Notes: a model not told the origin generated them from the letters alone. 14,416 bases of DNA from Chlamydiia bacterium (GCA_038257035.1 JBBSJT010000060.1:1-14416), one strand, 5' to 3'. Counted from the stretch's first letter, positions 1 through 10,748 are shown. Numbers and translations are program-made.

Positions 1-107
1 CAGGATAATATCAACCTCTAGGATATATTAGAGGTTGATATTATCCTGCCGCTTTAGCGATCCTGCCGCGAAGCGAAGCGGAGCGATCTTGCATATCCTG
101 TAAAAAA
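1..107. repeat. Long palindromic element (CAGGAT unit), left arm probably cut by the window edge
   Basis: Perfect 20-bp stem 1-20/29-48 with an 8-nt loop. The right arm continues with ATCYTG at 43, 60, 86 and 95 and ends in A6 (102-107). Confidence 0.8.
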
Positions 108-190
108 TTATAGAAGTTATATCAAATAGATTTTTTGGCATTGAAGTTTTCACTTTCAAGTAGAACCTTGTGTATACATATTCACAAATA

Positions 191-2995
191 CTAATGAAGG
201 TAATCGGCTTCTATTAGAAGCTCAAGGGCACCCATTTCATTAATTAAACAGGCATCCTTGTCCATAAAGAACTTATCATCAAGAAGTACAAATTGAAGGG
301 CATTCCTTACATCATTTGGGGCACTATTAAGATTTTGAACCAAATTTTCTACCACAACTTTTGGTGTGACATGTTTAAAGAATACCTCAAGCATTTCTTC
401 AGCTGTTTTTTCAAAGAGTTGATCTAAAATCAATGCTGTAAACCAATCAAATGAAGGTTCTTCACTCACACCTACATGATGCCCGATTACATTTTGTATG
501 TAGAGAGATTGATGCACGCTTTGTAAAATTTGAGAAGCACCTGTCAGCTCGTTCATGATTTCGTTTTCACCAAGAAATTGTGCTTGCAACAAACTTTTTA
601 CAGCTTGATTCGCAAATGAAGTGATTTTTTCTTGGGCCACTGGGCTTGTCATAACAGTTAAAGCTCCTTTATCGTTAATCTGCGGATAGATAAAATCAGA
701 ATCAAATTCGTAATCGTTAAAAAAATCGTCCCATTCCCAATATTCTTTACTTTTTGGCAAAATGTTTGCAGCATGAGAGGATAATTTCCCACCCTTGTTA
801 ATACTCTCTTTGACTGCATCAAATGTGTTATTCGGATTCTCAAGAATGAAATCCTTAATAAATTTCAGTGCTTCAATTTTTTCATTCTGTGTCGCTTTAT
901 CTTCTGCTGATTCCCATTTTGAAAGGTTAATTTTGTAGCGAAATTTTGGATTCATAATTTCATAGGCAGCGGCAATCCCTTCGTTTCTTTTTGGAATACA
1001 ATGCCCAATCCCTTTAAGTGTTGTGATCAGGGATCTTTCTTGATTGGTAAAATAGCACTCATTTTCAGTCTCGTTAGTTTCATTTAAAATGCTATTTAGA
1101 ACAGCTCTCCATTTACTTTCAGGTTCGGTTACAGTTTCACCGCTTAAAAGTAATAATTCTTTAAGGTAAGAGATAGGGGCTTTAAGATCATCAAGGGTGG
1201 CTTCCAAGTTTTTTAGAAAGGCATCTGTTTTATCTTTATCTTGATTAAATTTTTTGGACAAAGAGGATATTAATTGAGTAAAAGCCTCTAAGTTAGCATT
1301 TTCAGGCAAGTCTTCTCTTTTAAGTGCTGTTGCTTTTTTTAATTTTTTTAGCTGATCCATATTGATGGCATATTCACGCCCATGAATAATCATCGAAGGT
1401 GTTTGAAAATTTATTTCTTGTTTTGAAAATACTTTTAAATGGTTAAATAATCTGATGGGGTTTTTATCGCCTGTCGTCATGTTAGCGTAAAGATTTTGTT
1501 CTGCTGTTCTAGCTGTTTCATTATCAAAAACAAATCGATGTTGAAAATCCCGAATGAATTCGGACAGAAAAATTTGCATCTCAGGAGATGACGCCTGGCT
1601 CATAAGCTTTTCTTTTATCTTAATAGCGATAAATCTATTAAGACCTCCTTGATTTGCTACTCCAAATGTATTTAGTTTATAAACCCAATAACAAAAATCC
1701 CGGTCGAGTAAAGACGTTAAAATCCTCAGGCGATAACCATCAGCAATTTTTTGGCATTCACAGAAATTAAGTTCTTCCAATTGATCAAGATCCATCTTTG
1801 GTAATCTAGTTATCTCATGACACCCTTCAATATGAAGAGTTTTTAATTTTGCAAGAGGGTGTAATTGAGGAAGTTCTTTTAATTGTGAACACCCTCCAAG
1901 AAATATCTCAACAAGTTTTTGAAGCTTAACTAAGCCTTTTATAGACGACAAATTAAGGCAACCATGAAGGTTAAGCGCTTTTAAATGTTTAAATCCACTT
2001 ACATCAATCTCTAACAAATTTGTCCATTCTTCTAAGTGAAGTTCTTCCAAGTTTATAAGATCTGTTAAGTCAAAAGTTGTTAATTTACTGCAGTTTGAAA
2101 GATTAAGTGCTTTCAAATGAGTTAACGCTTTTAAAGAGGGCAGTTCTCGTAATTCTTCGCAATTTAGCAATATCAACTCTTCCAATTTCGTTAAATTGTC
2201 TATTTCAGGCAGATATTCCAAGTTAGTACATTCTGAAAGTTCTAGTGCTGTAAGCTCTTTTAGAGTGTTTAAATTATCCAAACCACTTCCCTTTATATCA
2301 TCTGACGTCAGGGTTAACGATTTAAGATTTGGACAATAACAGATGATTTTATTTGTAATCTCATCATCAACATAAATATAACTTGCACATAAGGTGTGGA
2401 TGCTTTGTCCATATTCTTTAATGAAATATTCAAATGTTTCAGATTTCATCGAAATGTCTGGAGTGACTTTTAGCGAAATGTCAGCATAAATAGCAAAAAG
2501 AGAACTTAAGTGATCAAGGATGTCTTCGTAAGATGTTTCTAGTTCAGTTCCAATTTCAATTGATAATGCATGATTAATTCTTACTATTTTCATTCCGGTT
2601 ATTTCATTGATAAATGAAATGCATTCGTCAATACATTTTTCATTATGATCATCTTTTGCAAGTTTAAAACATTCATAAACGTTTTCGGAGTTCATATGTA
2701 AGATCAAAAAATCCAAAGTTTGGTTTTTCATCTCCACCTCAATAGACGAGTAAATACTCAACATGATCTTCATGATTTTATTGGTTTGGTCAGGATCGAA
2801 TTCATGATTCAGATCGGCGTTTCTGATTTTTTCAAATAGGATTTCAAAATTCTCATCGGGCCCATTTTCCTGCCAGTGATCACTGTTGTCGTGTGCCAGA
2901 GCAAATAGATTTACTAACTTAGATTCAAATTTTTCTAAATTTTTAATTAATCTTTCTGTGTGTACGATATTTGATCTGTTATAATCAATTTCCAT
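191..2995 (-). CDS. 934-aa leucine-rich-repeat protein with degenerate BTB/BACK-like N-terminus; candidate secreted effector
   Basis: About 9 LxxLxLxxCxxLxxLP-type repeats at aa ~221-418. The aa ~46-131 pattern resembles a BTB-BACK junction. AAGGGA SD-like motif before the ATG. Confidence 0.85.
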   Translation of the reverse strand: MEIDYNRSNIVHTERLIKNLEKFESKLVNLFALAHDNSDHWQENGPDENFEILFEKIRNADLNHEFDPDQTNKIMKIMLSIYSSIEVEMKNQTLDFLILHMNSENVYECFKLAKDDHNEKCIDECISFINEITGMKIVRINHALSIEIGTELETSYEDILDHLSSLFAIYADISLKVTPDISMKSETFEYFIKEYGQSIHTLCASYIYVDDEITNKIICYCPNLKSLTLTSDDIKGSGLDNLNTLKELTALELSECTNLEYLPEIDNLTKLEELILLNCEELRELPSLKALTHLKALNLSNCSKLTTFDLTDLINLEELHLEEWTNLLEIDVSGFKHLKALNLHGCLNLSSIKGLVKLQKLVEIFLGGCSQLKELPQLHPLAKLKTLHIEGCHEITRLPKMDLDQLEELNFCECQKIADGYRLRILTSLLDRDFCYWVYKLNTFGVANQGGLNRFIAIKIKEKLMSQASSPEMQIFLSEFIRDFQHRFVFDNETARTAEQNLYANMTTGDKNPIRLFNHLKVFSKQEINFQTPSMIIHGREYAINMDQLKKLKKATALKREDLPENANLEAFTQLISSLSKKFNQDKDKTDAFLKNLEATLDDLKAPISYLKELLLLSGETVTEPESKWRAVLNSILNETNETENECYFTNQERSLITTLKGIGHCIPKRNEGIAAAYEIMNPKFRYKINLSKWESAEDKATQNEKIEALKFIKDFILENPNNTFDAVKESINKGGKLSSHAANILPKSKEYWEWDDFFNDYEFDSDFIYPQINDKGALTVMTSPVAQEKITSFANQAVKSLLQAQFLGENEIMNELTGASQILQSVHQSLYIQNVIGHHVGVSEEPSFDWFTALILDQLFEKTAEEMLEVFFKHVTPKVVVENLVQNLNSAPNDVRNALQFVLLDDKFFMDKDACLINEMGALELLIEADYLH

Positions 2996-3026
2996 AACGT
3001 CCCTTAATAAATTTTATGTTAAATAT

Positions 3027-3070
3027 ATTATAACAAATAAAAGTTAAGGGGTTGTTAAGGTGGAGTTAAG
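3027..3070 (-). promoter_or_regulatory. Extended -10 (TGtTATAAT) with three CTTAAC direct repeats at 11-bp period
   Basis: + strand GTTAAG at 3043, 3054 and 3065; ATTATA at 3027-3032. The nearest repeat lies 10 nt upstream of the -10. Confidence 0.55.
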
Positions 3071-3071
3071 T

Positions 3072-3101
3072 TTGCATCAAATAGGCCGTATATCGTATAC
3101 T
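3072..3101 (+). promoter_or_regulatory. Putative sigma70/sigma66-type promoter of holA
   Basis: TTGCAT (3072-3077), 18-nt spacer, TATACT (3096-3101); 42 nt before the GTG start. Confidence 0.4.
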
Positions 3102-3143
3102 AGCATCTAATATATCGACCAAAAAATACGCACAAATCCTAGA

Positions 3144-4178
3144 GTGTTCCAATTGAAATACACAAACGTTAAAGCTTTTGAAAAACATCTTCTCGATGCA
3201 TACCCTAAGAATTTTGCAGATGTCTATGCCGTTATTGGCAAAGAATCCTACGAGGTAAAGGCAGCTGTTGATGAATTGGTCAAGATTTTGCTTAAAACTT
3301 TAAAAAACCCTGAATTTGCACTAAAAACTTACGATGGGCAAAAGCTTATCATCCAAGAGTTGATGCAAGAGTTAAATTCTTTGCCTTTTTTTTCTGAGAA
3401 ACGAGTTGTCCTGATTTCCAACGCAGAGGAGCTTAACAAAGCCGATATAGCCAAGTTGGAAGAGTATTTTTCCCGTCCAAACGAAACATTAACCTTGATC
3501 ATCTCAGCATCGGCAATCAATCGGGCAACAAACTTTTATAAAAAAATGGAAAAAGTAGGTGTTCTTCTTGATTTTGCAGAAGAAAAGCAATGGGAGAAAG
3601 AAAAATCCTCAAAAGAATGGATTTTCGTTAAAGTTGCAAAAGAGAATAAACGGATAAACGAAGATGCTGCACTTCTTCTTCACAGCCAAATTGGAACGGA
3701 TTTATCTACTCTTAATCAAGAAATTGAAAAACTCATTTGTTTTATCGGCGATAGAAACGAGATCACTCAAAAGGATGTTGCAGCTGTTTGCACCCTTTTA
3801 CACACTGAGAATGGCTGGCAACTTGGCGAAGCTATTTTTGCAAGAAATGGCTCTTCTGCCTTTCGCATTACAAAAGGGTTACTTGAATCGGGCGTTCCTT
3901 TTTTGGCACTCATTCGTCAAATACGCTCCCAGGTACAAACAGGCTTTCAAATTTGTACGATTTTAGCCAATGGTGGGCTGGCCGCTGACGTTACTTCAGA
4001 ATTTCCATTTATGAGAGGCAGAATTTTAGATACTAACATGCAATCTGCAACAAATTATGGTTTGGTACGTTTTAAGAAGGCCATGTTAAAGATCGACGAA
4101 ACCGAATCTGCCGCTAAAAACGGCCTCGGCAGCGATGAGTACTTAAGCGATCTCCTGATCGCCCACCTCGTCATGTGA
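3144..4178 (+). CDS. holA: DNA polymerase III subunit delta
   Basis: 344 aa with HolA-like motifs (ELNSLPFFSEKRVVLI; IGTDLSTLNQEIEKL; ITQKDV). Same position as chlamydial CT047. GTG start. Confidence 0.9.
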   Translation: MFQLKYTNVKAFEKHLLDAYPKNFADVYAVIGKESYEVKAAVDELVKILLKTLKNPEFALKTYDGQKLIIQELMQELNSLPFFSEKRVVLISNAEELNKADIAKLEEYFSRPNETLTLIISASAINRATNFYKKMEKVGVLLDFAEEKQWEKEKSSKEWIFVKVAKENKRINEDAALLLHSQIGTDLSTLNQEIEKLICFIGDRNEITQKDVAAVCTLLHTENGWQLGEAIFARNGSSAFRITKGLLESGVPFLALIRQIRSQVQTGFQICTILANGGLAADVTSEFPFMRGRILDTNMQSATNYGLVRFKKAMLKIDETESAAKNGLGSDEYLSDLLIAHLVM

Positions 4179-4277
4179 GCGTTTGTGATTTTTTAACACA
4201 GAGCACACCGAGAAGCAAATGAGAGAAATGAGAGAAGCTAAAAACCCATTTACCTTCAGGCACATATCGTATTTGAT

Positions 4278-4403
4278 TTTTTCAACGCAAAGAAGCTGCA
4301 GAAGACGCAAAGGCGCAAAGATTAAAAAGGCTCTTTGCACGCTTAAAGGGTCTTTTTAATCTTTGCGCCTTTGCGTCTTCTGCAGCTTCTTTGCGTTGAA
4401 AAA
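4278..4403. repeat. Palindrome with 52-bp perfect arms (CGCAAAG unit)
   Basis: 4278-4329 is the exact reverse complement of 4352-4403. The 22-nt centre pairs further with G:T wobbles. Confidence 0.95.
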
Positions 4404-4444
4404 TCTGAAACTTTTATTAAGGAGCGTCGTTATATACCCAAAGC

Positions 4445-4694
4445 TCAAGTTTTGTGATCGTAGTGATTTTGAAGGTTTAGCCAAAATTCAGCTGATGTTC
4501 CGAAGGCAATAGAAAAGTCTAAGGCGATATATTCAGTAATTCTTCTTTTCTTATTAATGATTTCACTGATTTTAACTTTAGTCCATGAATCTCCAAGATT
4601 AACAACGAGCTGTTCTTGAGAAAGCTTAAGAGGTTTAAGAAATTCTTCTAACAAAATTTCTCCGGGGTGTGGGGGGTCTATTTTTTGGAAGCAT
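4445..4694 (-). pseudogene. higA: HigA/VapI-family HTH antitoxin, frameshifted near codon 8-9, with no adjacent toxin
   Basis: AAGGAG-aatt-ATG(4694) gives MLPKNRPPT. The continuation HPGEILLEEFLKPL...FGTSAEFWLNLQ is in another frame. The shift lies at the G6 run 4671-4676 or the adjacent GTGT. Confidence 0.8.
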
Positions 4695-4836
4695 AATTCT
4701 CCTTCTCATTTGATACTAATATACAAAATAATACATTTCCACTTTATTCAGTGGGTTGGAGAGCATTAACCCCCCATCTCTTATTCTTCCTCTGTGGCCT
4801 CTGTGTTAAAAAATCATGTTCCATAAAGCCTCGTTA

Positions 4837-4845
4837 TGCTATACT
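4837..4845 (+). promoter_or_regulatory. Putative extended -10 for the RsmI-like gene
   Basis: TG-c-TATACT, 27 nt before ATG 4873; no clear -35. Confidence 0.35.
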
Positions 4846-4872
4846 AAGATACCAAAATAGAAGGATTTGATC

Positions 4873-5607
4873 ATGACAGAACCAAAAGCTGCTTTATTAC
4901 TTTTACCCAATCTTTTAGGCGATTTTGCCCATCATGAACCTTTTTTGCCAAGTAGTGTGGATAAAGTTGTGAAAACTTTGGACGGACTCATCGCCGAAAG
5001 TCACCAGGCAGGAAGACGTTTTATCAGTAGGTTTGAAACAAAAAAACCGGCAAATGAAATGCCGATTGCTTTATTTAACGAACACACGCCCGATGCTGAT
5101 ATTGACTTTTTGCTAGAGCCAATCAGAAAAGGGGAGCGTTGGGGTTTTGTTTCCGATGCAGGCTTGCCTTGCATTGCAGATCCCGGCGCAAAACTTGTTC
5201 GCCGCGCAAGACAAACAGGCGTTGTTATTCAGGCTTTTGTTGGGCCATCCTCTATTATGTTATCTTTGATGTTATCGGGACTTCCAGGTCAGAGCTTTAA
5301 TTTTCATGGTTATTTAAATTCAAAACCTGAAAATCGAAAAACGGCAATTTTTGAACTCGAGCAATCTTCAAAGAAAAGCGGAAATACAGAAATTTTCATA
5401 GAAACTCCTTACCGTAATAAACATATGCTAGAAACACTTCTTGCAACTTTGGATGATGAGACTTGGTTGTGTGTAGCATCTGATTTAACATTGAATACAC
5501 AAAGCGTTGTTTCCCAACCGATCGCATTGTGGAAAAAAAGCCCTTTGCCAAACTTAGACAAAAAAGCTGCCATTTTCTTAGTTAATGCCAAAATGAAGGA
5601 TGAATAG
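4873..5607 (+). CDS. rsmI: SAM-dependent methyltransferase, tetrapyrrole methylase superfamily, RsmI-like (CT048 homologue)
   Basis: Motifs SDAGLPCIADPG, VGPSSIMLSLMLSGLPGQSFNFHGYL and IFIETPYRN. ATG 4873 is preferred over TTG 4867 because AAGGA lies 7 nt upstream. Exact RsmI activity is not provable from sequence. Confidence 0.75.
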   Translation: MTEPKAALLLLPNLLGDFAHHEPFLPSSVDKVVKTLDGLIAESHQAGRRFISRFETKKPANEMPIALFNEHTPDADIDFLLEPIRKGERWGFVSDAGLPCIADPGAKLVRRARQTGVVIQAFVGPSSIMLSLMLSGLPGQSFNFHGYLNSKPENRKTAIFELEQSSKKSGNTEIFIETPYRNKHMLETLLATLDDETWLCVASDLTLNTQSVVSQPIALWKKSPLPNLDKKAAIFLVNAKMKDE

Positions 5608-5626
5608 TTAATTAAGCTTTAATAAA

Positions 5627-5677
5627 TTATATATTGTTATTATAATAAGTAATGTATTATAATAAAACAATATATAA
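5627..5677. promoter_or_regulatory. AT-rich inverted repeat overlapping TATAAT boxes upstream of the hydrolase gene
   Basis: 5627-5647 pairs with 5655-5677 with a 2-nt bulge. TATAAT at 5641 and 5658; AAGGAG SD follows. Confidence 0.45.
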
Positions 5678-5691
5678 AAGTTAAGGAGCCT

Positions 5692-6804
5692 ATGGCATAT
5701 TCAGTTGATTCAGCTTACTTGGAGTACTATAAATGTGCTCTTAAAGGAAAATATAAAAAAGCCGACTCTTTTTTCAAAGAAAGAGTTACGGCTTTTTCTA
5801 TTTCAATCATTACCTGTCTAATTGCTGTTCTTTTTCTTTTTAGTCGTCTGATCACTCTTCCCTTTAAAATATTAGCCGTTCTTTTTTCTTTACTGTCACC
5901 CACTAGTTTTATAAATCAGACCAAACTGCTGACCCTATCCCTTATTATTTTGATTTATCAGCCTGTTCAATTGATTGTTCATTTACTAAGTGGAGCTGTT
6001 GGGCTTCTTCATCCACTTATTGCCTATCAACTGATGCAAGAGGCTTCCATACCGCTTGTTTTTCTATTAACTTATGAGAAAAAACTAAAGGAAAACAGAA
6101 AAACAGCCCTATCTTATATTAGAATCACACGATTTTTTAAGGAAAAACTCACCAGAAATTTTGATAAAACCCCTTGGCCTATTCAAATTGCTATAAAAAC
6201 CATGATCAATGAATTTTCAGAATCGATGAACGCAGGTATTGTTGCACCTCTTGGATGGATGGAAAAGTTTCATCTTTTTAATGCAAATCCTGCTGTTTTA
6301 AAAGAAGAGCAAAAAGAACTAGTCCCCATTTTGTTGTTAAACGGCAATTACAGCCATCAAGCAACATTTTTGCCCCTTCTTTATGCACTCGAAAACTCCG
6401 GCAACAAAAGGCCCGTCTACACCGTCAATCTACCTCCAAATTGCAGAGATAATCGCTTGATTATTGAAAAGGTAGAAGAAATTAAAAAGCAATTTGGCAA
6501 AGAAAATGATGTCACTTTTAAAATTGATGCAATTGGCCATTCGATGGGATCTCATTGTATTCAAGAAGTGTTAATGGCAGACATCAGTTTTGAAATCAAT
6601 CGACTGATTACAGTCGGAACACCATTCAAAAATAAAACTTCGGTTAATAAAGTCTTTGATATTACGGCAAAAAATGATGTAATCATTTTAGAAAGAAGTC
6701 GTCTAGCTTCAATAAAAGATCGTGTAGAAATAGATACCGGTCACCTCGGGCTACTCTTTCACCGCGAAAGCCTGAACGCAATGCTCACCTTCCTCAAATC
6801 CTGA
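5692..6804 (+). CDS. Alpha/beta-fold hydrolase (esterase/lipase-like) with long hydrophobic N-terminal region
   Basis: GHSMG nucleophile elbow (S284), candidate D329 and H351 (GHLGLL), oxyanion segment LLLNG. Hydrophobic aa ~34-115. AAGGAG SD. Confidence 0.85.
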   Translation: MAYSVDSAYLEYYKCALKGKYKKADSFFKERVTAFSISIITCLIAVLFLFSRLITLPFKILAVLFSLLSPTSFINQTKLLTLSLIILIYQPVQLIVHLLSGAVGLLHPLIAYQLMQEASIPLVFLLTYEKKLKENRKTALSYIRITRFFKEKLTRNFDKTPWPIQIAIKTMINEFSESMNAGIVAPLGWMEKFHLFNANPAVLKEEQKELVPILLLNGNYSHQATFLPLLYALENSGNKRPVYTVNLPPNCRDNRLIIEKVEEIKKQFGKENDVTFKIDAIGHSMGSHCIQEVLMADISFEINRLITVGTPFKNKTSVNKVFDITAKNDVIILERSRLASIKDRVEIDTGHLGLLFHRESLNAMLTFLKS

Positions 6805-6829
6805 TTGACCACCGTCTTGAACAGGTTTC

Positions 6830-7056
6830 TACCGATAAGGGGGATCTTTTTACCGCGAAGAACGCGAAGAAAGACGCGAAGAGGCGCGAAGAAGCGCGCT
6901 AAAGCGCGAAAAATTGCAACCATAAGAAAACAATAACCTGAGGGAAACTTTTTTTCTTTTCTTTTCGCAGCATAGCTGCGCTTCTTCGCGTTTCTTCCCG
7001 CAGCAAAGCTGCGCTTCTTCGCGCTCTTCGCGGTAAAAAAGTCCCCATTAACGGTA
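6830..7056. repeat. Imperfect palindromic element (CGCGAAG unit) between convergent genes
   Basis: Outer arms 6830-6871 and 7015-7056 match at 37/42 as reverse complements. CGCGAAG occurs four times on the left and CTTCGCG three times on the right; internal mini-hairpins. Confidence 0.9.
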
Positions 7057-7080: not shown

Positions 7081-8193
7081 TTAGATGATGTCGACGGCGA
7101 CTGTGTCGTAAAAGAGTATTCCTCTTCTAGTCAACTTAATAACATCCCCGTTCTTCTCTATAAAACCGTCTTTGACAAGCTTATCGATTGAGGCCCACAC
7201 ATCCTTTTCTAAAGAACCATGCAACTCTTGAAATTTAGTAAGGTCAACCCCTTTAATCAATCGAAGATTGATTGCAAGAAGCTCTTTTCGTCTACTTTGA
7301 GGGTCAAGTTCTTCCTTAAAGTCTACAGGGGAGTTGTTTTCTAAGAGTAGTTTGTGGTAATGGCTTAAATTGGATATGTTTTGAAAGCGTTTATTTTTGT
7401 AGTAACTAAATGCTGAAGGGCCAAGCCCCAAGAATGTGCGTCCTATCCAATAACCTACATTATGTAATGAATGGAGTCCGGGGAGGGAAAAAGCAGAAAT
7501 TTCATATTGATTAAGTTTTGTCGTAATGATCTCAACAGCCATCTCATACATGCGAAGACTAGTTTCTTCATCAGGCAATAATTTTTCTAGCTGGTTTTTA
7601 TTTTTAAAGAAAACTGTATGTGGCTCAATGGTTAAATTGTAGAGAGATAAATGGGTGATTGGAAGCTCAACAACTTGTTTTAAGGTGTTTTCCCACATGA
7701 TCAAATTTTGGCTTGGCAGATCATACATCAAGTCGATGGAAATATTATGAATTCCAGCATGATGTGTTTCATAAACGGCTTCGATTGCTTTTTGTCCTGA
7801 ATGTAGGCGTCCCAATGTTTTAAGAAGCTGCGGATCAAGAGATTGAATGCCGATGCTCACTCGGTTAACACCTGCATCTTTATAGGCACTCATCAATTCT
7901 CTTGTGATGTTTTCAGGATTTGCTTCAAGAGTTACTTCAATTGGTTTTGGTAACCAGCTTAAAATTTCGGCGATGGCTTCTGCCCCAAGAAGAGAAGGGG
8001 TGCCGCCCCCAAAGTAGACGGTCACAAGCTGTTTTGATTCAACAATGGCTTGAAGCCTTTTCCATTCAAGACGAAAACCCTCCATCAATTGCTTTTTAAG
8101 AGGGTCTTTATCGGGAAGGACATAAAAATGACAGTAGGAACATTTTTTTGTGCAAAAAGGAATGTGGAAATATAAACTAATCTCTTCTTTCAA
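7081..8193 (-). CDS. hemW: Radical SAM heme chaperone HemW (HemN-like)
   Basis: LYFHIPFCTKKCSYC (CxxxCxxC), YFGGGTPS, EVTLEANP, YEISAF, HNVGYW. The TTG start abuts the upstream stop codon. Confidence 0.9.
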   Translation of the reverse strand: MKEEISLYFHIPFCTKKCSYCHFYVLPDKDPLKKQLMEGFRLEWKRLQAIVESKQLVTVYFGGGTPSLLGAEAIAEILSWLPKPIEVTLEANPENITRELMSAYKDAGVNRVSIGIQSLDPQLLKTLGRLHSGQKAIEAVYETHHAGIHNISIDLMYDLPSQNLIMWENTLKQVVELPITHLSLYNLTIEPHTVFFKNKNQLEKLLPDEETSLRMYEMAVEIITTKLNQYEISAFSLPGLHSLHNVGYWIGRTFLGLGPSAFSYYKNKRFQNISNLSHYHKLLLENNSPVDFKEELDPQSRRKELLAINLRLIKGVDLTKFQELHGSLEKDVWASIDKLVKDGFIEKNGDVIKLTRRGILFYDTVAVDII

Positions 8194-10556: not shown

Positions 10557-10748
10557 AAAATTTGCTAATTTGGAGTGCTGTGGCCTGACACAGCTTTGTA
10601 GCTCAAATCGACCTGGCGATTTGCAAGCCCGATTTATCGGGATTAAAGCCTTTTATTAAATAAATCGAACTTGTCGATTTAGCAGCCCGCCAGGTCGGGC
10701 TGAGGGCAAAGCGGAGCCAGGTCTCCGCACTCCAAATTAGCAAATTTT
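10557..10748. mobile_element. REP doublet (REPIN-like) with 22-bp perfect terminal inverted repeats and TGGA-type REP hairpins
   Basis: AAAATTTGCTAATTTGGAGTGC (10557-10578) and its reverse complement (10727-10748). Each end reads TGGA-GT, 6-bp stem, RCCTGR loop, stem, TTTG. Confidence 0.75.

What the first reader, a model, noticed from the sequence alone, without database searches (positions are those of the whole stretch)
1..7056. Family of intergenic palindromic elements with one layout but four different repeat units
Seen: four inverted-repeat elements within 7 kb, each read inward from its end as a T5-6 run then a short tandem unit. (1) 1-107, minus strand: TTTTTT-ACAGGAT-ATGCAAGAT...GCAGGAT...GCAGGAT. 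(2) 4186-4816: TTTTTT-AACACAGAG-CACACCGAG on the left and -AACACAGAG-GCCACAGAG on the right. (3) 4278-4403: TTTTT-CAACGCAAAG...ACGCAAAG-GCGCAAAG. (4) 6830-7056: TTTTT-ACCGCGAAG-AACGCGAAG... All lie just past a gene 3' end, and the unit regions are more GC-rich than the surrounding intergenic DNA. Inference: a non-autonomous element or protein-recognition-site family with diversified specificity words, served in trans. From memory, unverified: similar ~9-nt periodic words flank GxxExxY-family (PD-(D/E)XK-like) genes in many prokaryotes. No such gene is in this window, and I know of no described mechanism.
Basis: partly seen in the sequence, partly recalled or inferred. Interest (0 to 1): 0.8.

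Follow-up and report, generated by a model that had tools for sequence, protein, structure and literature searches.

The report
Word-repeat palindromes tied to GxxExxY nuclease genes
The four odd palindromes are copies of a large family of selfish DNA repeats that fill the gaps between genes in this chlamydia-like genome. Their full-length relatives carry a small, uncharacterised nuclease gene (GxxExxY), which gives that gene family a testable role.

Summary
They are not single-copy. A T-run/18-mer/inverted-copy/A-run scan of the 2.37-Mb genome gives 208 hits against 0 and 0 in shuffles. These make 191 distinct elements in 7 word families.

The genome's only two GxxExxY genes both sit among such arms. 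One lies inside a complete CGCGAAG element. The other lies between a decayed CGCAAAG-type left arm and a complete CGCAAAG palindrome.

Across the order:
- 52 of 72 GxxExxY genes have inward-facing word arrays within 300 nt.
- Protein clades follow the words.
- Array-rich genomes hold the gene in 42 of 48 cases, array-poor ones in 10 of 102. The same comparison for an IS5-type transposase gives 19/48 against 38/102.

My reading is that these are gene-less derivatives of GxxExxY cassettes. Mobilisation by the nuclease itself is inferred, not shown.

Caveats:
- In three relatives the cassette rides inside, or beside the remains of, a DDE insertion sequence.
- The true element ends lie outside the T-runs.
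- No target-site duplication was found.

This scan has reported the same class on other DNA. I found no description in the literature I searched.

The parts
1..107 (-). CAGGAT-family element: central 20-nt perfect hairpin (1-48) plus the right arm, which on the minus strand reads T6-ACAGGAT... . The left arm is lost because the contig starts inside the element.
   Evidence: (inverted repeat I7). There are 34 T-run-anchored family copies genome-wide. Homologous arms bracket GxxExxY genes in relatives (L074, L088).
108..172 (.). Possible outer module of element 1: a T-run followed by a ...CACTTTCAAGTAG... segment.
   Evidence: It resembles flanks that recur next to CAGGAT, CAGTGAG, CGCAGAG and CGCAAAG elements elsewhere in the genome. 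The assignment is tentative.
4186..4816 (.). CACAGAG/CACCGAG-family element. Arms 4186-4212 and 4790-4816 (T6 + AACACAGAG CACACCGAG, then the inverted copy + A6). It encloses a nested element and a higA remnant.
   Evidence: inverted repeat I4, 27 nt, 89%. Seven family copies. The extended left arm matches the right arm of the 1190-nt copy on contig C34.
4278..4403 (.). CGCAAAG-family palindrome with 59-nt arms, nested inside the CACAGAG element.
   Evidence: I1, 97%; z -17.6. Copies at 82-92% identity lie on contigs C7, C17, C4, C24, C143, C5 and C122. The C17 copy abuts a GxxExxY gene.
4445..4696 (-). Solo, C-terminally shortened higA (antitoxin-type HTH) gene between the arms of the CACAGAG element.
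   Evidence: TIGR02607 scores 78.6 bits against a cut-off of 47.7. Relatives have higB-higA pairs with longer HigA and no word arrays. Congener G002 has a decayed higA remnant at the same spacer without recognisable arms, and G001 has a 5-nt spacer.
6830..7056 (.). CGCGAAG-family element between the converging ends of the 370-aa ORF and the hemN-like gene. T5 at 6847-6851, A6 at 7035-7040, with an outer inverted-repeat layer 6830-6846 / 7041-7056.
   Evidence: I2, I8, I23; z -11.4. There are 79 distinct family copies. The copy at C7:926-1588 carries an intact GxxExxY gene between the same arms.

Best explanation
The four window elements belong to a genome-wide superfamily of selfish 'tandem-word' palindromes. 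In this 2.37-Mb chlamydia-like genome there are at least 191 copies in at least 7 word families. Each arm reads, from outside in: a family-specific outer module, a T5-7 run, A(A/C)C, then 2-5 tandem 8-9-nt words. The other arm is the inverted copy and ends in an A-run.

They are gene-less or decayed relatives of small cassettes whose full-length form carries a GxxExxY gene between the same arms. GxxExxY (TIGR04256, PDDEXK_3) is a roughly 125-aa PD-(D/E)XK-fold nuclease.

Proposed mechanism, which is inferred: each clade of GxxExxY protein recognises its own word array on both arms. With its intact D...ExK centre it cuts at or near the arms. It thereby copies or maintains both its own cassette and, in trans, the gene-less copies. 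This would parallel the way RAYT transposases are thought to serve REPINs.

The T-run-first layout is the reverse of an intrinsic terminator, so elements can sit behind and between genes without stopping transcription.

Shown here: repetition, intergenic and nested placement, absence from orthologous spacers in congeners, gene-within-arms linkage, agreement between word and protein clade, and genome-level co-occurrence.

Inferred: binding of the words, cleavage, service in trans, and whether movement goes through DNA.
For: Copy number and chance:
- 208 hits against 0 and 0 in shuffled genomes.
- 191 distinct copies in 7 word families.

Behaviour as inserted DNA:
- Only 5.7% overlap crude ORF calls by more than 30%.
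- 57 of 172 lie in converging spacers, which make up 235 of 1651 of all spacers.
- Elements nest in one another. The nested CAGTGAG element on C12 brings its outer modules with it.
- The orthologous holA-rsmI spacer is 5 nt in congener G001.
- The C7 cassette is missing from the G002 orthologous spacer.

Link to GxxExxY in this genome:
- One of the genome's 2 GxxExxY genes lies inside a complete CGCGAAG element, C7:926-1588.
- The other lies between a decayed CGCAAAG-type left arm and a complete CGCAAAG palindrome.

Link across the order (150 genomes scored, 72 genes examined):
- 52 genes have an inward-facing array of at least 2 words within 300 nt, and 24 have one on both sides.
- Wrongly oriented arrays number 4 upstream and 7 downstream.
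- Word class changes 15 times on the protein tree, against 26-32 in 300 shuffles.
- The CGCGAAG, CGCAAAG and GCAGGAT word classes each fall in one protein clade, spread over different families of the order. The GCAGGAT clade also holds one CACAGAG-labelled row and four unlabelled rows.

Co-occurrence by genome:
- Array-rich genomes hold GxxExxY in 42 of 48 cases, array-poor ones in 10 of 102.
- For the IS5-type DDE_Tnp_1_5 domain the figures are 19/48 against 38/102.
- For Y1_Tnp they are 35/48 against 37/102.
- The four genomes richest in CGCGAAG arrays (341, 240, 128, 53) hold three intact members of the CGCGAAG-linked clade and one broken one. The next four (29, 25, 16, 13) hold none.

The protein looks like a working nuclease:
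- D76, E86 and K88 are conserved in at least 90% of 57 sequences.
- The AlphaFold2 model has pLDDT 92.3.
- Its best structural matches are all PD-(D/E)XK nucleases.

Layout: a T-run of 5 or more lies within 12 nt on the 5' side of 496 of 801 arrays, and on the 3' side of 3 of 801.
Against: - In G104/G126, the 16-18 near-identical GxxExxY copies lie inside a 1563-bp IS5-family insertion sequence whose roughly 65-nt terminal repeats include the words.
- In G029 the multi-copy cassette sits beside a degraded DDE_Tnp_1 gene within a larger repeated unit. In these genomes amplification needs no GxxExxY activity, and the gene could be a passenger.
- Only 2 of at least 7 word families have a cognate gene in this assembly.
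- The copies are old. Best-partner identity has medians of 82-92%, and only 2 copies reach 97%. Current activity in this genome is therefore not shown.
- No target-site duplication and no nucleotide-exact empty site was found.
- Other genes occur between arms: the higA remnant and a 159-aa ORF of no known family. Relatives' higBA pairs have no arrays.
- 6 array-rich genomes show no GxxExxY, and 10 genomes with the gene show fewer than 5 arrays under my word pattern.
- The genomes compared are kin, so the Fisher values overstate the support.
- Gene and arms inherited together as one unit would also give the agreement between word and clade.
Confidence: 0.5

Rival explanations
1. The elements are ordinary MITEs moved by a DDE transposase (IS5 family or similar) that binds the outer modules or subterminal words. 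GxxExxY is only a passenger or addiction-type gene that rides in them.
For: In G104/G126 the repeated unit is an insertion sequence holding DDE_Tnp_1_5 and DDE_Tnp_1 ORFs together with a GxxExxY gene. Word arrays lie just inside both ends. In G029 the cassette lies between the end of a repeated unit and a degraded DDE_Tnp_1 gene. In this genome the conserved element ends lie outside the T-runs, as terminal inverted repeats would. Two CAGTGAG copies have a GG(C/T)(A/G)TTGTTGCAA motif about 35 nt outside the T-run, resembling that insertion sequence's end.
Against: This genome has no DDE_Tnp_1_5 hit. It has one DDE_Tnp_1 hit, on a contig without arrays, and three rve hits, yet it carries 191 elements. 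Across 150 genomes the IS5-type domain does not track arrays: 19/48 against 38/102, odds ratio 1.1. The free-standing C7 cassette is 663 nt, which leaves no room for a transposase. The assembly is fragmented (210 contigs), so a missing insertion sequence cannot be excluded.
Confidence: 0.2
2. The elements are REPIN-like and are moved by the genome's RAYT-type Y1 (HUH) transposases acting on single-stranded hairpins.
For: The genome has 9 Y1_Tnp matches and no TnpB. The elements are hairpin-forming inverted doublets placed between genes, like REPINs (abstract of PMC3116915). Y1_Tnp is commoner in array-rich genomes: 35/48 against 37/102.
Against: Of the 7 Y1_Tnp loci inspected, 5 are flanked on both sides by their own REP-type palindromes, most of them containing GTAG. 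None of the 7 is flanked by the word arrays of these families. 13 array-rich genomes lack Y1_Tnp, including one with 225 arrays. The association is much weaker than for GxxExxY (odds ratio 4.7 against 64).
Confidence: 0.08
3. The elements are kept mainly for a host function as structured RNA or DNA, such as RNase III processing sites, 3'-end stabilisers or protein-binding arrays. They are not currently mobile.
For: The stems are very stable. Placement is enriched at gene 3' ends. The layout is strictly non-terminating. Copies are old yet still well paired. The related 23S rRNA intervening sequences are cut out by RNase III (PMC4990558, passages read).
Against: Elements are not at orthologous positions in congeners. 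They nest inside each other. Their distribution across the order is patchy: 48 of 150 genomes are array-rich. No Rfam family reaches its threshold. The words differ between copies that sit in equivalent positions.
Confidence: 0.07
4. The word arrays arise locally by replication slippage, as simple-sequence or heptamer repeats do, and the palindromes arise by local inverted duplication. No element transfer is involved.
For: The number of words per arm varies from 2 to 5. Heptamer repeats of unexplained origin are known in Xanthomonas and Nostoc (abstract of PMC4692102).
Against: Copies share 100-200 nt of non-repetitive interior and outer modules at 82-92% identity on different contigs. The same arms occur at 88-92% identity in other genera, whose genes are 64-75% identical.
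Confidence: 0.05

Closest known systems
REPIN-RAYT systems (REP doublets forming hairpins, served by a single-copy REP-associated Y1 transposase; Bertels and Rainey 2011, PMC3116915, abstract read)
   Same: Short, gene-less, hairpin-forming inverted doublets spread through the space between genes. There are several families per genome. Each family is tied to a small gene that is itself flanked by the family's repeats.
   Different: The associated gene is a PD-(D/E)XK-fold GxxExxY protein, not a Y1/HUH transposase. The arms are tandem 8-9-nt words behind a T-run, not a GTAG-type REP. This genome also has classic RAYT/REP sets, and they are distinct from these elements.
23S rRNA intervening sequences carrying an S23p / 23S_rRNA_IVP ORF (Coxiella, Leptospira; PMC4990558, passages read)
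   Same: An inverted-repeat stem encloses an optional small ORF. The element is regarded as selfish and of unknown mobility. Its distribution is patchy. This genome has one 23S_rRNA_IVP gene outside rRNA, flanked by short tandem words.
   Different: The window elements lie between protein-coding genes, not in 23S helices. Most have no ORF. The linked gene is GxxExxY. Cutting by RNase III is not tested here.
MITEs derived from DDE insertion sequences (for example Correia elements or IS5/IS630-derived MITEs; recalled, not read here)
   Same: Small, non-coding, inverted-repeat-bounded, multi-copy and intergenic, with longer gene-bearing relatives.
   Different: No target-site duplication was found. 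No matching transposase is in this assembly. The internal arms are built of diversified tandem words. The gene-bearing relative encodes a nuclease of unknown function. In some relatives the cassette does lie inside an IS5-family insertion sequence.
Heptamer repeats of Xanthomonas and Nostoc (Rehm et al. 2015, PMC4692102, abstract read) and cyanobacterial STRR repeats (recalled)
   Same: Tandem 7-9-nt words enriched in non-coding DNA close to gene ends, with unknown origin.
   Different: Those are described as direct tandem arrays and discussed as G-quadruplex formers. They are not described as paired inverted arrays around a nuclease gene.

Membership tests
GxxExxY protein family (TIGR04256 / Pfam PDDEXK_3), for the genes at C7 and C17, not in the window | Score above NCBIfam's curated cut-off over the full model | tested here: met
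   138.4 and 141.3 bits against a cut-off of 35, covering model positions 2-116 and 1-116.
GxxExxY protein family (TIGR04256 / Pfam PDDEXK_3) | PD-(D/E)XK fold with the acidic/lysine centre retained | tested here: met
   D76, E86 and K88, and the G32/G34/E37/Y40 motif, are conserved in at least 90% of 57 sequences. The model has pLDDT 92.3. The top structural matches are PD-(D/E)XK nucleases, but only at Z of 7.8 or below, so no close solved relative exists. There are no PDB sequence hits.
MITE | Short, non-coding, multi-copy, with terminal inverted repeats | tested here: met
   191 copies with median lengths of 108-290 nt by family, bounded by inverted repeats.
MITE | Target-site duplication flanking each copy | tested here: inconclusive
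   No consistent direct repeat was seen at the flanks of aligned copies. The true ends are not fixed to the nucleotide, because no exact empty site was available.
MITE | A parent element in the same genome encoding a transposase with the same ends | tested here: not met
   No DDE_Tnp_1_5. One DDE_Tnp_1 without arrays. The gene-bearing relative encodes GxxExxY instead. The assembly is incomplete (95.8%, 210 contigs).
REPIN / RAYT | The RAYT gene is flanked by the same repeats that are dispersed as doublets | tested here: not met
   At the 7 Y1_Tnp loci inspected, the flanking palindromes that are present are GTAG-type REPs of their own kind. None of the 7 carries the word arrays.
23S rRNA intervening sequence | Inserted in a 23S rRNA helix and removed from the rRNA | tested here: not met
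   The window elements lie between protein-coding genes. Rfam finds no rRNA in the window.
Intrinsic (Rho-independent) terminator | G+C-rich hairpin followed by a T-run on the transcribed strand | tested here: not met
   The T-run precedes the hairpin and the A-run follows it, on both strands. A T-run of 5 or more lies 5' of 496 of 801 arrays and 3' of 3 of 801. The opposite layout gives 20 hits against 208.
HigA antitoxin (TIGR02607), for the ORF at 4445-4696 | Score above the cut-off, with a partner higB upstream | tested here: inconclusive
   The HMM criterion is met (78.6 bits against 47.7). No higB is present, and the protein is shorter than in relatives that have higBA pairs. It is therefore a likely remnant.

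The most novel reading that the evidence does not exclude
GxxExxY proteins are a so far unrecognised class of element-specific nucleases. Each clade reads its own tandem 7-9-nt word. The nuclease mobilises or maintains a cassette and a cloud of gene-less palindromic copies. This would be a PD-(D/E)XK counterpart of the RAYT-REPIN partnership. On this reading, the intervening sequences of 23S rRNA and many unexplained 'heptamer repeats' of bacteria belong to the same class. The agreement between words and protein clades would then be a readable protein-DNA recognition code.
Probability: 0.33. Interest if true: 0.85.

Novelty: new variant of a known kind. Interest (0 to 1): 0.66.

Why it matters
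GxxExxY/PDDEXK_3 is a very large family listed as 'Unknown' in the PD-(D/E)XK survey (PMC3424549, table row read). Tying it to a defined DNA partner, tandem words that differ by protein clade, gives a direct bench test of binding and cleavage on cognate against non-cognate arrays.

If that test holds, it would explain a widespread class of intergenic repeats that break assemblies. This contig starts inside one. It would add a second enzyme class to the REPIN idea. It would also offer natural pairs of small nucleases and short recognition words.

For chlamydia-like genomes it shows that about 190 such elements, together with classic REP/RAYT sets, shape the spacers, and that they sit in a form that avoids terminating transcription.

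Tried and rejected
- **Sequencing runs.** No RNA holder was listed. Laying two DNA runs, kept as short contigs, gave only depth spikes over the elements and a few low-support joints. It gave no clean empty site.
- **Homodimer prediction for GxxExxY.** No answer: score 0.00 against a mark of 0.42 (after two queue refusals).
- **Fold-back or arm-homogenisation idea.** Arms match each other better than arms re-paired at random within a family (for example 502 of 869 against a mean of 382). However, an arm is usually closer to an arm of another copy than to its own partner (own better in 4 of 78 for CGCGAAG, 8 of 33 for CAGGAT). Rejected.
- **T-run as the target or the element end.** Rejected, because nested inserts carry conserved modules outside the T-run.
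- **Rfam.** Only four microRNA-precursor models matched, all far below their thresholds.
- **PDB by sequence.** No hit at E up to 1.
- **The search for related loci.** The single protein found one locus only. I therefore could not test generality beyond this order myself.
- **Literature.**
  - 'GxxExxY': 3 papers, none about repeats.
  - 'PDDEXK_3 / PF13366': 2 papers.
  - Chlamydiae with miniature inverted-repeat: nothing relevant in the 15 listed.
  - STRR/heptamer: nothing relevant in the 12 listed.
  - Supplementary files were not opened.
- **Exact orthologous comparison with congeners.** Spacers are not alignable, because genes are only 66-75% identical.

Full report
**The window.** It is contig C60 of a 2,366,241-base, 210-contig genome with 36% G+C and 95.8% completeness. 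Its genes are ordinary for a chlamydia-like organism:
- an LRR protein (191-2995, minus strand)
- holA (3144-4178)
- an rsmI-like methylase (4867-5607)
- a 370-aa ORF of no known family (5692-6804)
- a hemN-like radical-SAM gene (7081-8193, minus strand)
- ccsA-, apbE- and folD-like genes

The closest named relative of one of its GxxExxY proteins is in a record titled Simkania negevensis.

**Observation.**
- 4278-4403 has 59-nt arms, 97% complementary.
- 6830-7056 has 42-nt outer arms (88%) plus inner repeats.
- 4186-4212 / 4790-4816 has 27-nt arms (89%), 577 nt apart.
- 1-48 is a perfect 20-nt hairpin followed by a word arm that ends in the run at 102-107.

Read inward, each shows T5-6, then A(A/C)C, then tandem 8-9-nt words. 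As RNA they fold at -102.2, -117.5 and -43.6 kcal/mol, with z -17.6, -11.4 and -6.1. None of 200 shuffles does as well. The arms hold 41-59% G+C, against 14-38% in other spacers of the window.

Three corrections apply. Element 1 is cut by the contig start. The T-runs are not the element ends (see Anatomy below). There are more than four word families.

**Genome-wide census.**
- A mechanical scan looked for a T-run of at least 5, an 18-mer, its reverse complement within 1.5 kb with at most 3 mismatches, and AAAA. It gives 208 hits.
- Two block-shuffled genomes give 0 and 0. The opposite layout (A-run first) gives 20.
- By word, the hits are CGCGAAG 81, CAGGAT 34, CAGTGAG 33, CGCAAAG 24, CGCAGAG 12, CACAGAG/CACCGAG 7, CACGAAG 3 and other 14.
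- Merging hits that share a right end leaves 191 distinct elements in 7 families.
- An eighth family is built of AAAGGAC 9-mers.
- Without asking for a T-run, 801 arrays of at least 2 words are found on the two strands. 496 have a T-run of 5 or more within 12 nt on the 5' side. Only 3 have one on the 3' side.
- Only 5.7% of elements overlap crude ORF calls by more than 30%.
- Their contexts are converging 57, co-directional 91, diverging 24 and contig edge 22. All spacers of the genome split 235, 1143 and 273.
- Copies are diverged. Best-partner identity has medians of 82-92%, and only 2 copies reach 97%.

**Anatomy.**
- Alignments anchored on the T-run show conserved sequence further out.
- CGCGAAG copies carry a ...TA(C/T)CG(C/T)TA...GGG(A/G)(C/T)C layer.
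- CAGGAT copies carry a module of about 50 nt. Of 49 matches to its last 22 bases, 40 are clearly followed by T-run + CAGGAT, 2 by variants, and the rest by other cores or other sequence.
- The CAGTGAG element nested in a CACAGAG element on C12 brings such outer modules with it. The mobile unit is therefore larger than T-run to A-run.
- Nested insertions are frequent. In the window, 4278-4403 sits inside 4186-4816. Other examples are on C31, C143, C12, C34 and C100.
- No consistent direct duplication was seen at the flanks.

**Link to GxxExxY.**
- The genome has two TIGR04256 genes and none in the window.
- C7:1145-1492 lies inside a 663-nt CGCGAAG element whose arms match those of window element 4.
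- C17:14847-15203 lies between a decayed CGCAAAG-type left arm and a complete CGCAAAG palindrome of the window-element-3 type.
- The one four-helix-bundle (23S_rRNA_IVP) gene, between rimM and a methyltransferase gene, is flanked by tandem ATTCCAA-type words.
- In 150 scored genomes of the order, 52 have TIGR04256 matches.
- I examined 72 genes in 71 loci: the 30 loci offered plus 40 that I chose as full-length, diverse matches, plus the two of this genome.
- 52 have an inward-facing array of at least 2 words of the form C[AG][CG]N[AG]AG within 300 nt, and 24 have one on both sides.
- Outward-facing arrays number 4 upstream and 7 downstream.
- Several of the 20 misses have words outside my pattern (CAGGAT, CGCCGAC, 7-nt-period CACGGAT).
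- GCAGGAT-type cassettes in relatives have arms homologous to window element 1.

**Word against protein.**
- I built a quick maximum-likelihood tree of 67 proteins, 51 of them with a word label in 10 classes.
- The label changes 15 times, against 26-32 in 300 shuffles.
- The CGCGAAG, CGCAAAG(+CGGTAAG), GCAGGAT, CACTGAG and CACAGAG labels fall largely in separate clades that span different families of the order.
- This is what co-inheritance of gene and arms predicts, and it is compatible with specific recognition. It does not prove recognition.

**Genome-level co-occurrence.**
- 48 of 150 genomes have at least 5 three-word arrays.
- 42 of these 48 have GxxExxY, against 10 of the other 102 (odds ratio 64).
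- For the IS5-type DDE_Tnp_1_5 domain the figures are 19/48 against 38/102 (odds ratio 1.1).
- For Y1_Tnp they are 35/48 against 37/102 (odds ratio 4.7).
- The genomes are kin, so the p-values overstate the support. The contrast between the three gene families is the useful part.
- CGCGAAG arrays are concentrated in four genomes (341, 240, 128, 53). Three hold an intact member of the CGCGAAG-linked clade. The fourth holds a 62%-identical C-terminal fragment with a stop codon.
- The next four genomes (29, 25, 16, 13) hold no clade member.

**The protein.**
- 57 aligned sequences keep G32, G34, E37, Y40, D76, E86, K88, Q100 and Y104.
- The AlphaFold2 model is confident (pLDDT 92.3).
- Foldseek finds only weak matches (best E 2e-3). 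The wide VIA-align search gives Z of 7.8 or below.
- Most of the top matches are PD-(D/E)XK nucleases: the BpuSI nuclease domain, Cas4 SSO0001, CinB, SwaI, BglII, BamHI and Hjc.
- It has no sequence match in the PDB.
- It therefore looks like an active small nuclease without a characterised close relative.

**Rivals.**
- The genome holds 9 Y1_Tnp matches without TnpB. At the 7 loci inspected, the flanking palindromes that are present are GTAG-type REPs of their own kind. None of the 7 carries the word arrays. Classic REP/RAYT sets therefore coexist with the word elements and are distinct from them.
- More serious is the DDE rival. In G104/G126 the 16-18 near-identical GxxExxY copies are part of a 1563-bp IS5-family insertion sequence (DDE_Tnp_1_5 + DDE_Tnp_1) whose roughly 65-nt ends include word arrays.
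- In G029 the cassette sits next to a degraded DDE_Tnp_1 gene inside a longer repeated unit. In those genomes copy number is explained by the insertion sequence, and GxxExxY may be a passenger.
- In the window's genome no such transposase was found, but the assembly is fragmented.

**Orthologous sites.**
- In congener G001, holA and rsmI are separated by TAA-TTTTT-ATG.
- G002 has a decayed higA remnant there without recognisable arms.
- Relatives of other genera have intact higB-higA pairs without arrays.
- The window's higA is therefore a shortened solo remnant. Whether it entered as cargo of the CACAGAG element or predates it is not resolved.
- The C7 cassette is not present in the orthologous G002 spacer.
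- CGCAAAG arms occur at 88-92% identity over about 50 nt in several other genera whose genes are 64-75% identical to the window's. This fits transfer or constraint.

**Known and new.**
- Rfam has nothing for these elements.
- The literature I could search does not describe the link. 'GxxExxY' occurs in 3 papers, none on repeats. PDDEXK_3 is listed as 'Unknown' in PMC3424549.
- 23S intervening sequences are described as selfish elements of unknown origin, bounded by inverted repeats and cut by RNase III (PMC4990558).
- REPINs are the nearest concept (PMC3116915 abstract).
- Earlier agents of this scan reported the same class in this genome (e1-7717913) and in other phyla (e1-1147052, e1-4988615, e1-756962, e1-4817739, e1-2096826, e1-2430501). 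I treated these as leads. Here I tested the GxxExxY link for this genome and its order only.

**Verdict.**
- The elements are a selfish repeat superfamily related to GxxExxY cassettes (about 0.85).
- The nuclease itself reading the words and serving the gene-less copies is the best mechanism on offer, but it is unproven (about 0.5 for the whole statement).
- A DDE-transposase/passenger reading is the main rival.

Noticed in passing
window 10557-10748: A 42-nt-arm inverted repeat (86%) between the ccsA-like and apbE-like genes. Its sequence resembles the palindromes flanking the RAYT-like Y1_Tnp gene at C68:12300-12539. A copy also lies inside the long CACCGAG element on C34. It is probably a REPIN-type doublet of a classic REP/RAYT system.
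   Followed up: partly
G000 contigs C29, C119, C105, C7, C25, C48, C68: Nine Y1_Tnp (IS200/RAYT-like) matches and no TnpB. Several of the genes are broken. Most of the 7 loci are flanked by their own GTAG-containing palindromes, and the C105 gene sits between T-run/A-run-bounded inverted repeats.
   Followed up: partly
G000, e.g. C3:9612-9700, C4:6509-6600: A further tandem-word family built of 9-nt AAAGGAC(N2) units after a T-run, with inverted GTCCTTT units on the other side. There are 36 arrays of at least 2 units on one strand.
   Followed up: no
L035 1430-2992 (relative G126) and L033 (G104): A 1563-bp IS5-family insertion sequence that carries a GxxExxY gene next to its two transposase ORFs and has word arrays inside both ends. 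It is present in about 16-25 copies per genome.
   Followed up: partly
window 5692-6804: A 370-aa ORF with no Pfam or NCBIfam match. It is missing from the syntenic region of congener G002, where rsmI and hemN converge directly.
   Followed up: no
window 6800 / 4188 (run X2): A contig from a roughly 90%-identical relative in a second soil run joins the end of the 370-aa ORF to a CACAGAG-type element end. In that relative a different word family may occupy this spacer. Support is low: one contig at depth 4.3.
   Followed up: no
window 1 (contig start) and many contig ends: The contig begins inside a CAGGAT element, and several elements lie within 200 nt of contig ends. These repeats evidently break the assembly, so copy numbers are a floor.
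   Followed up: no
G000 C34:9699-10178 (L097 400-879, minus strand): A 159-aa ORF with a coiled-coil-like C-terminus and no significant family. It is enclosed by a 1190-nt CACCGAG/CACAGAG element together with a REPIN-like doublet and a nested CGCAGAG element.
   Followed up: partly
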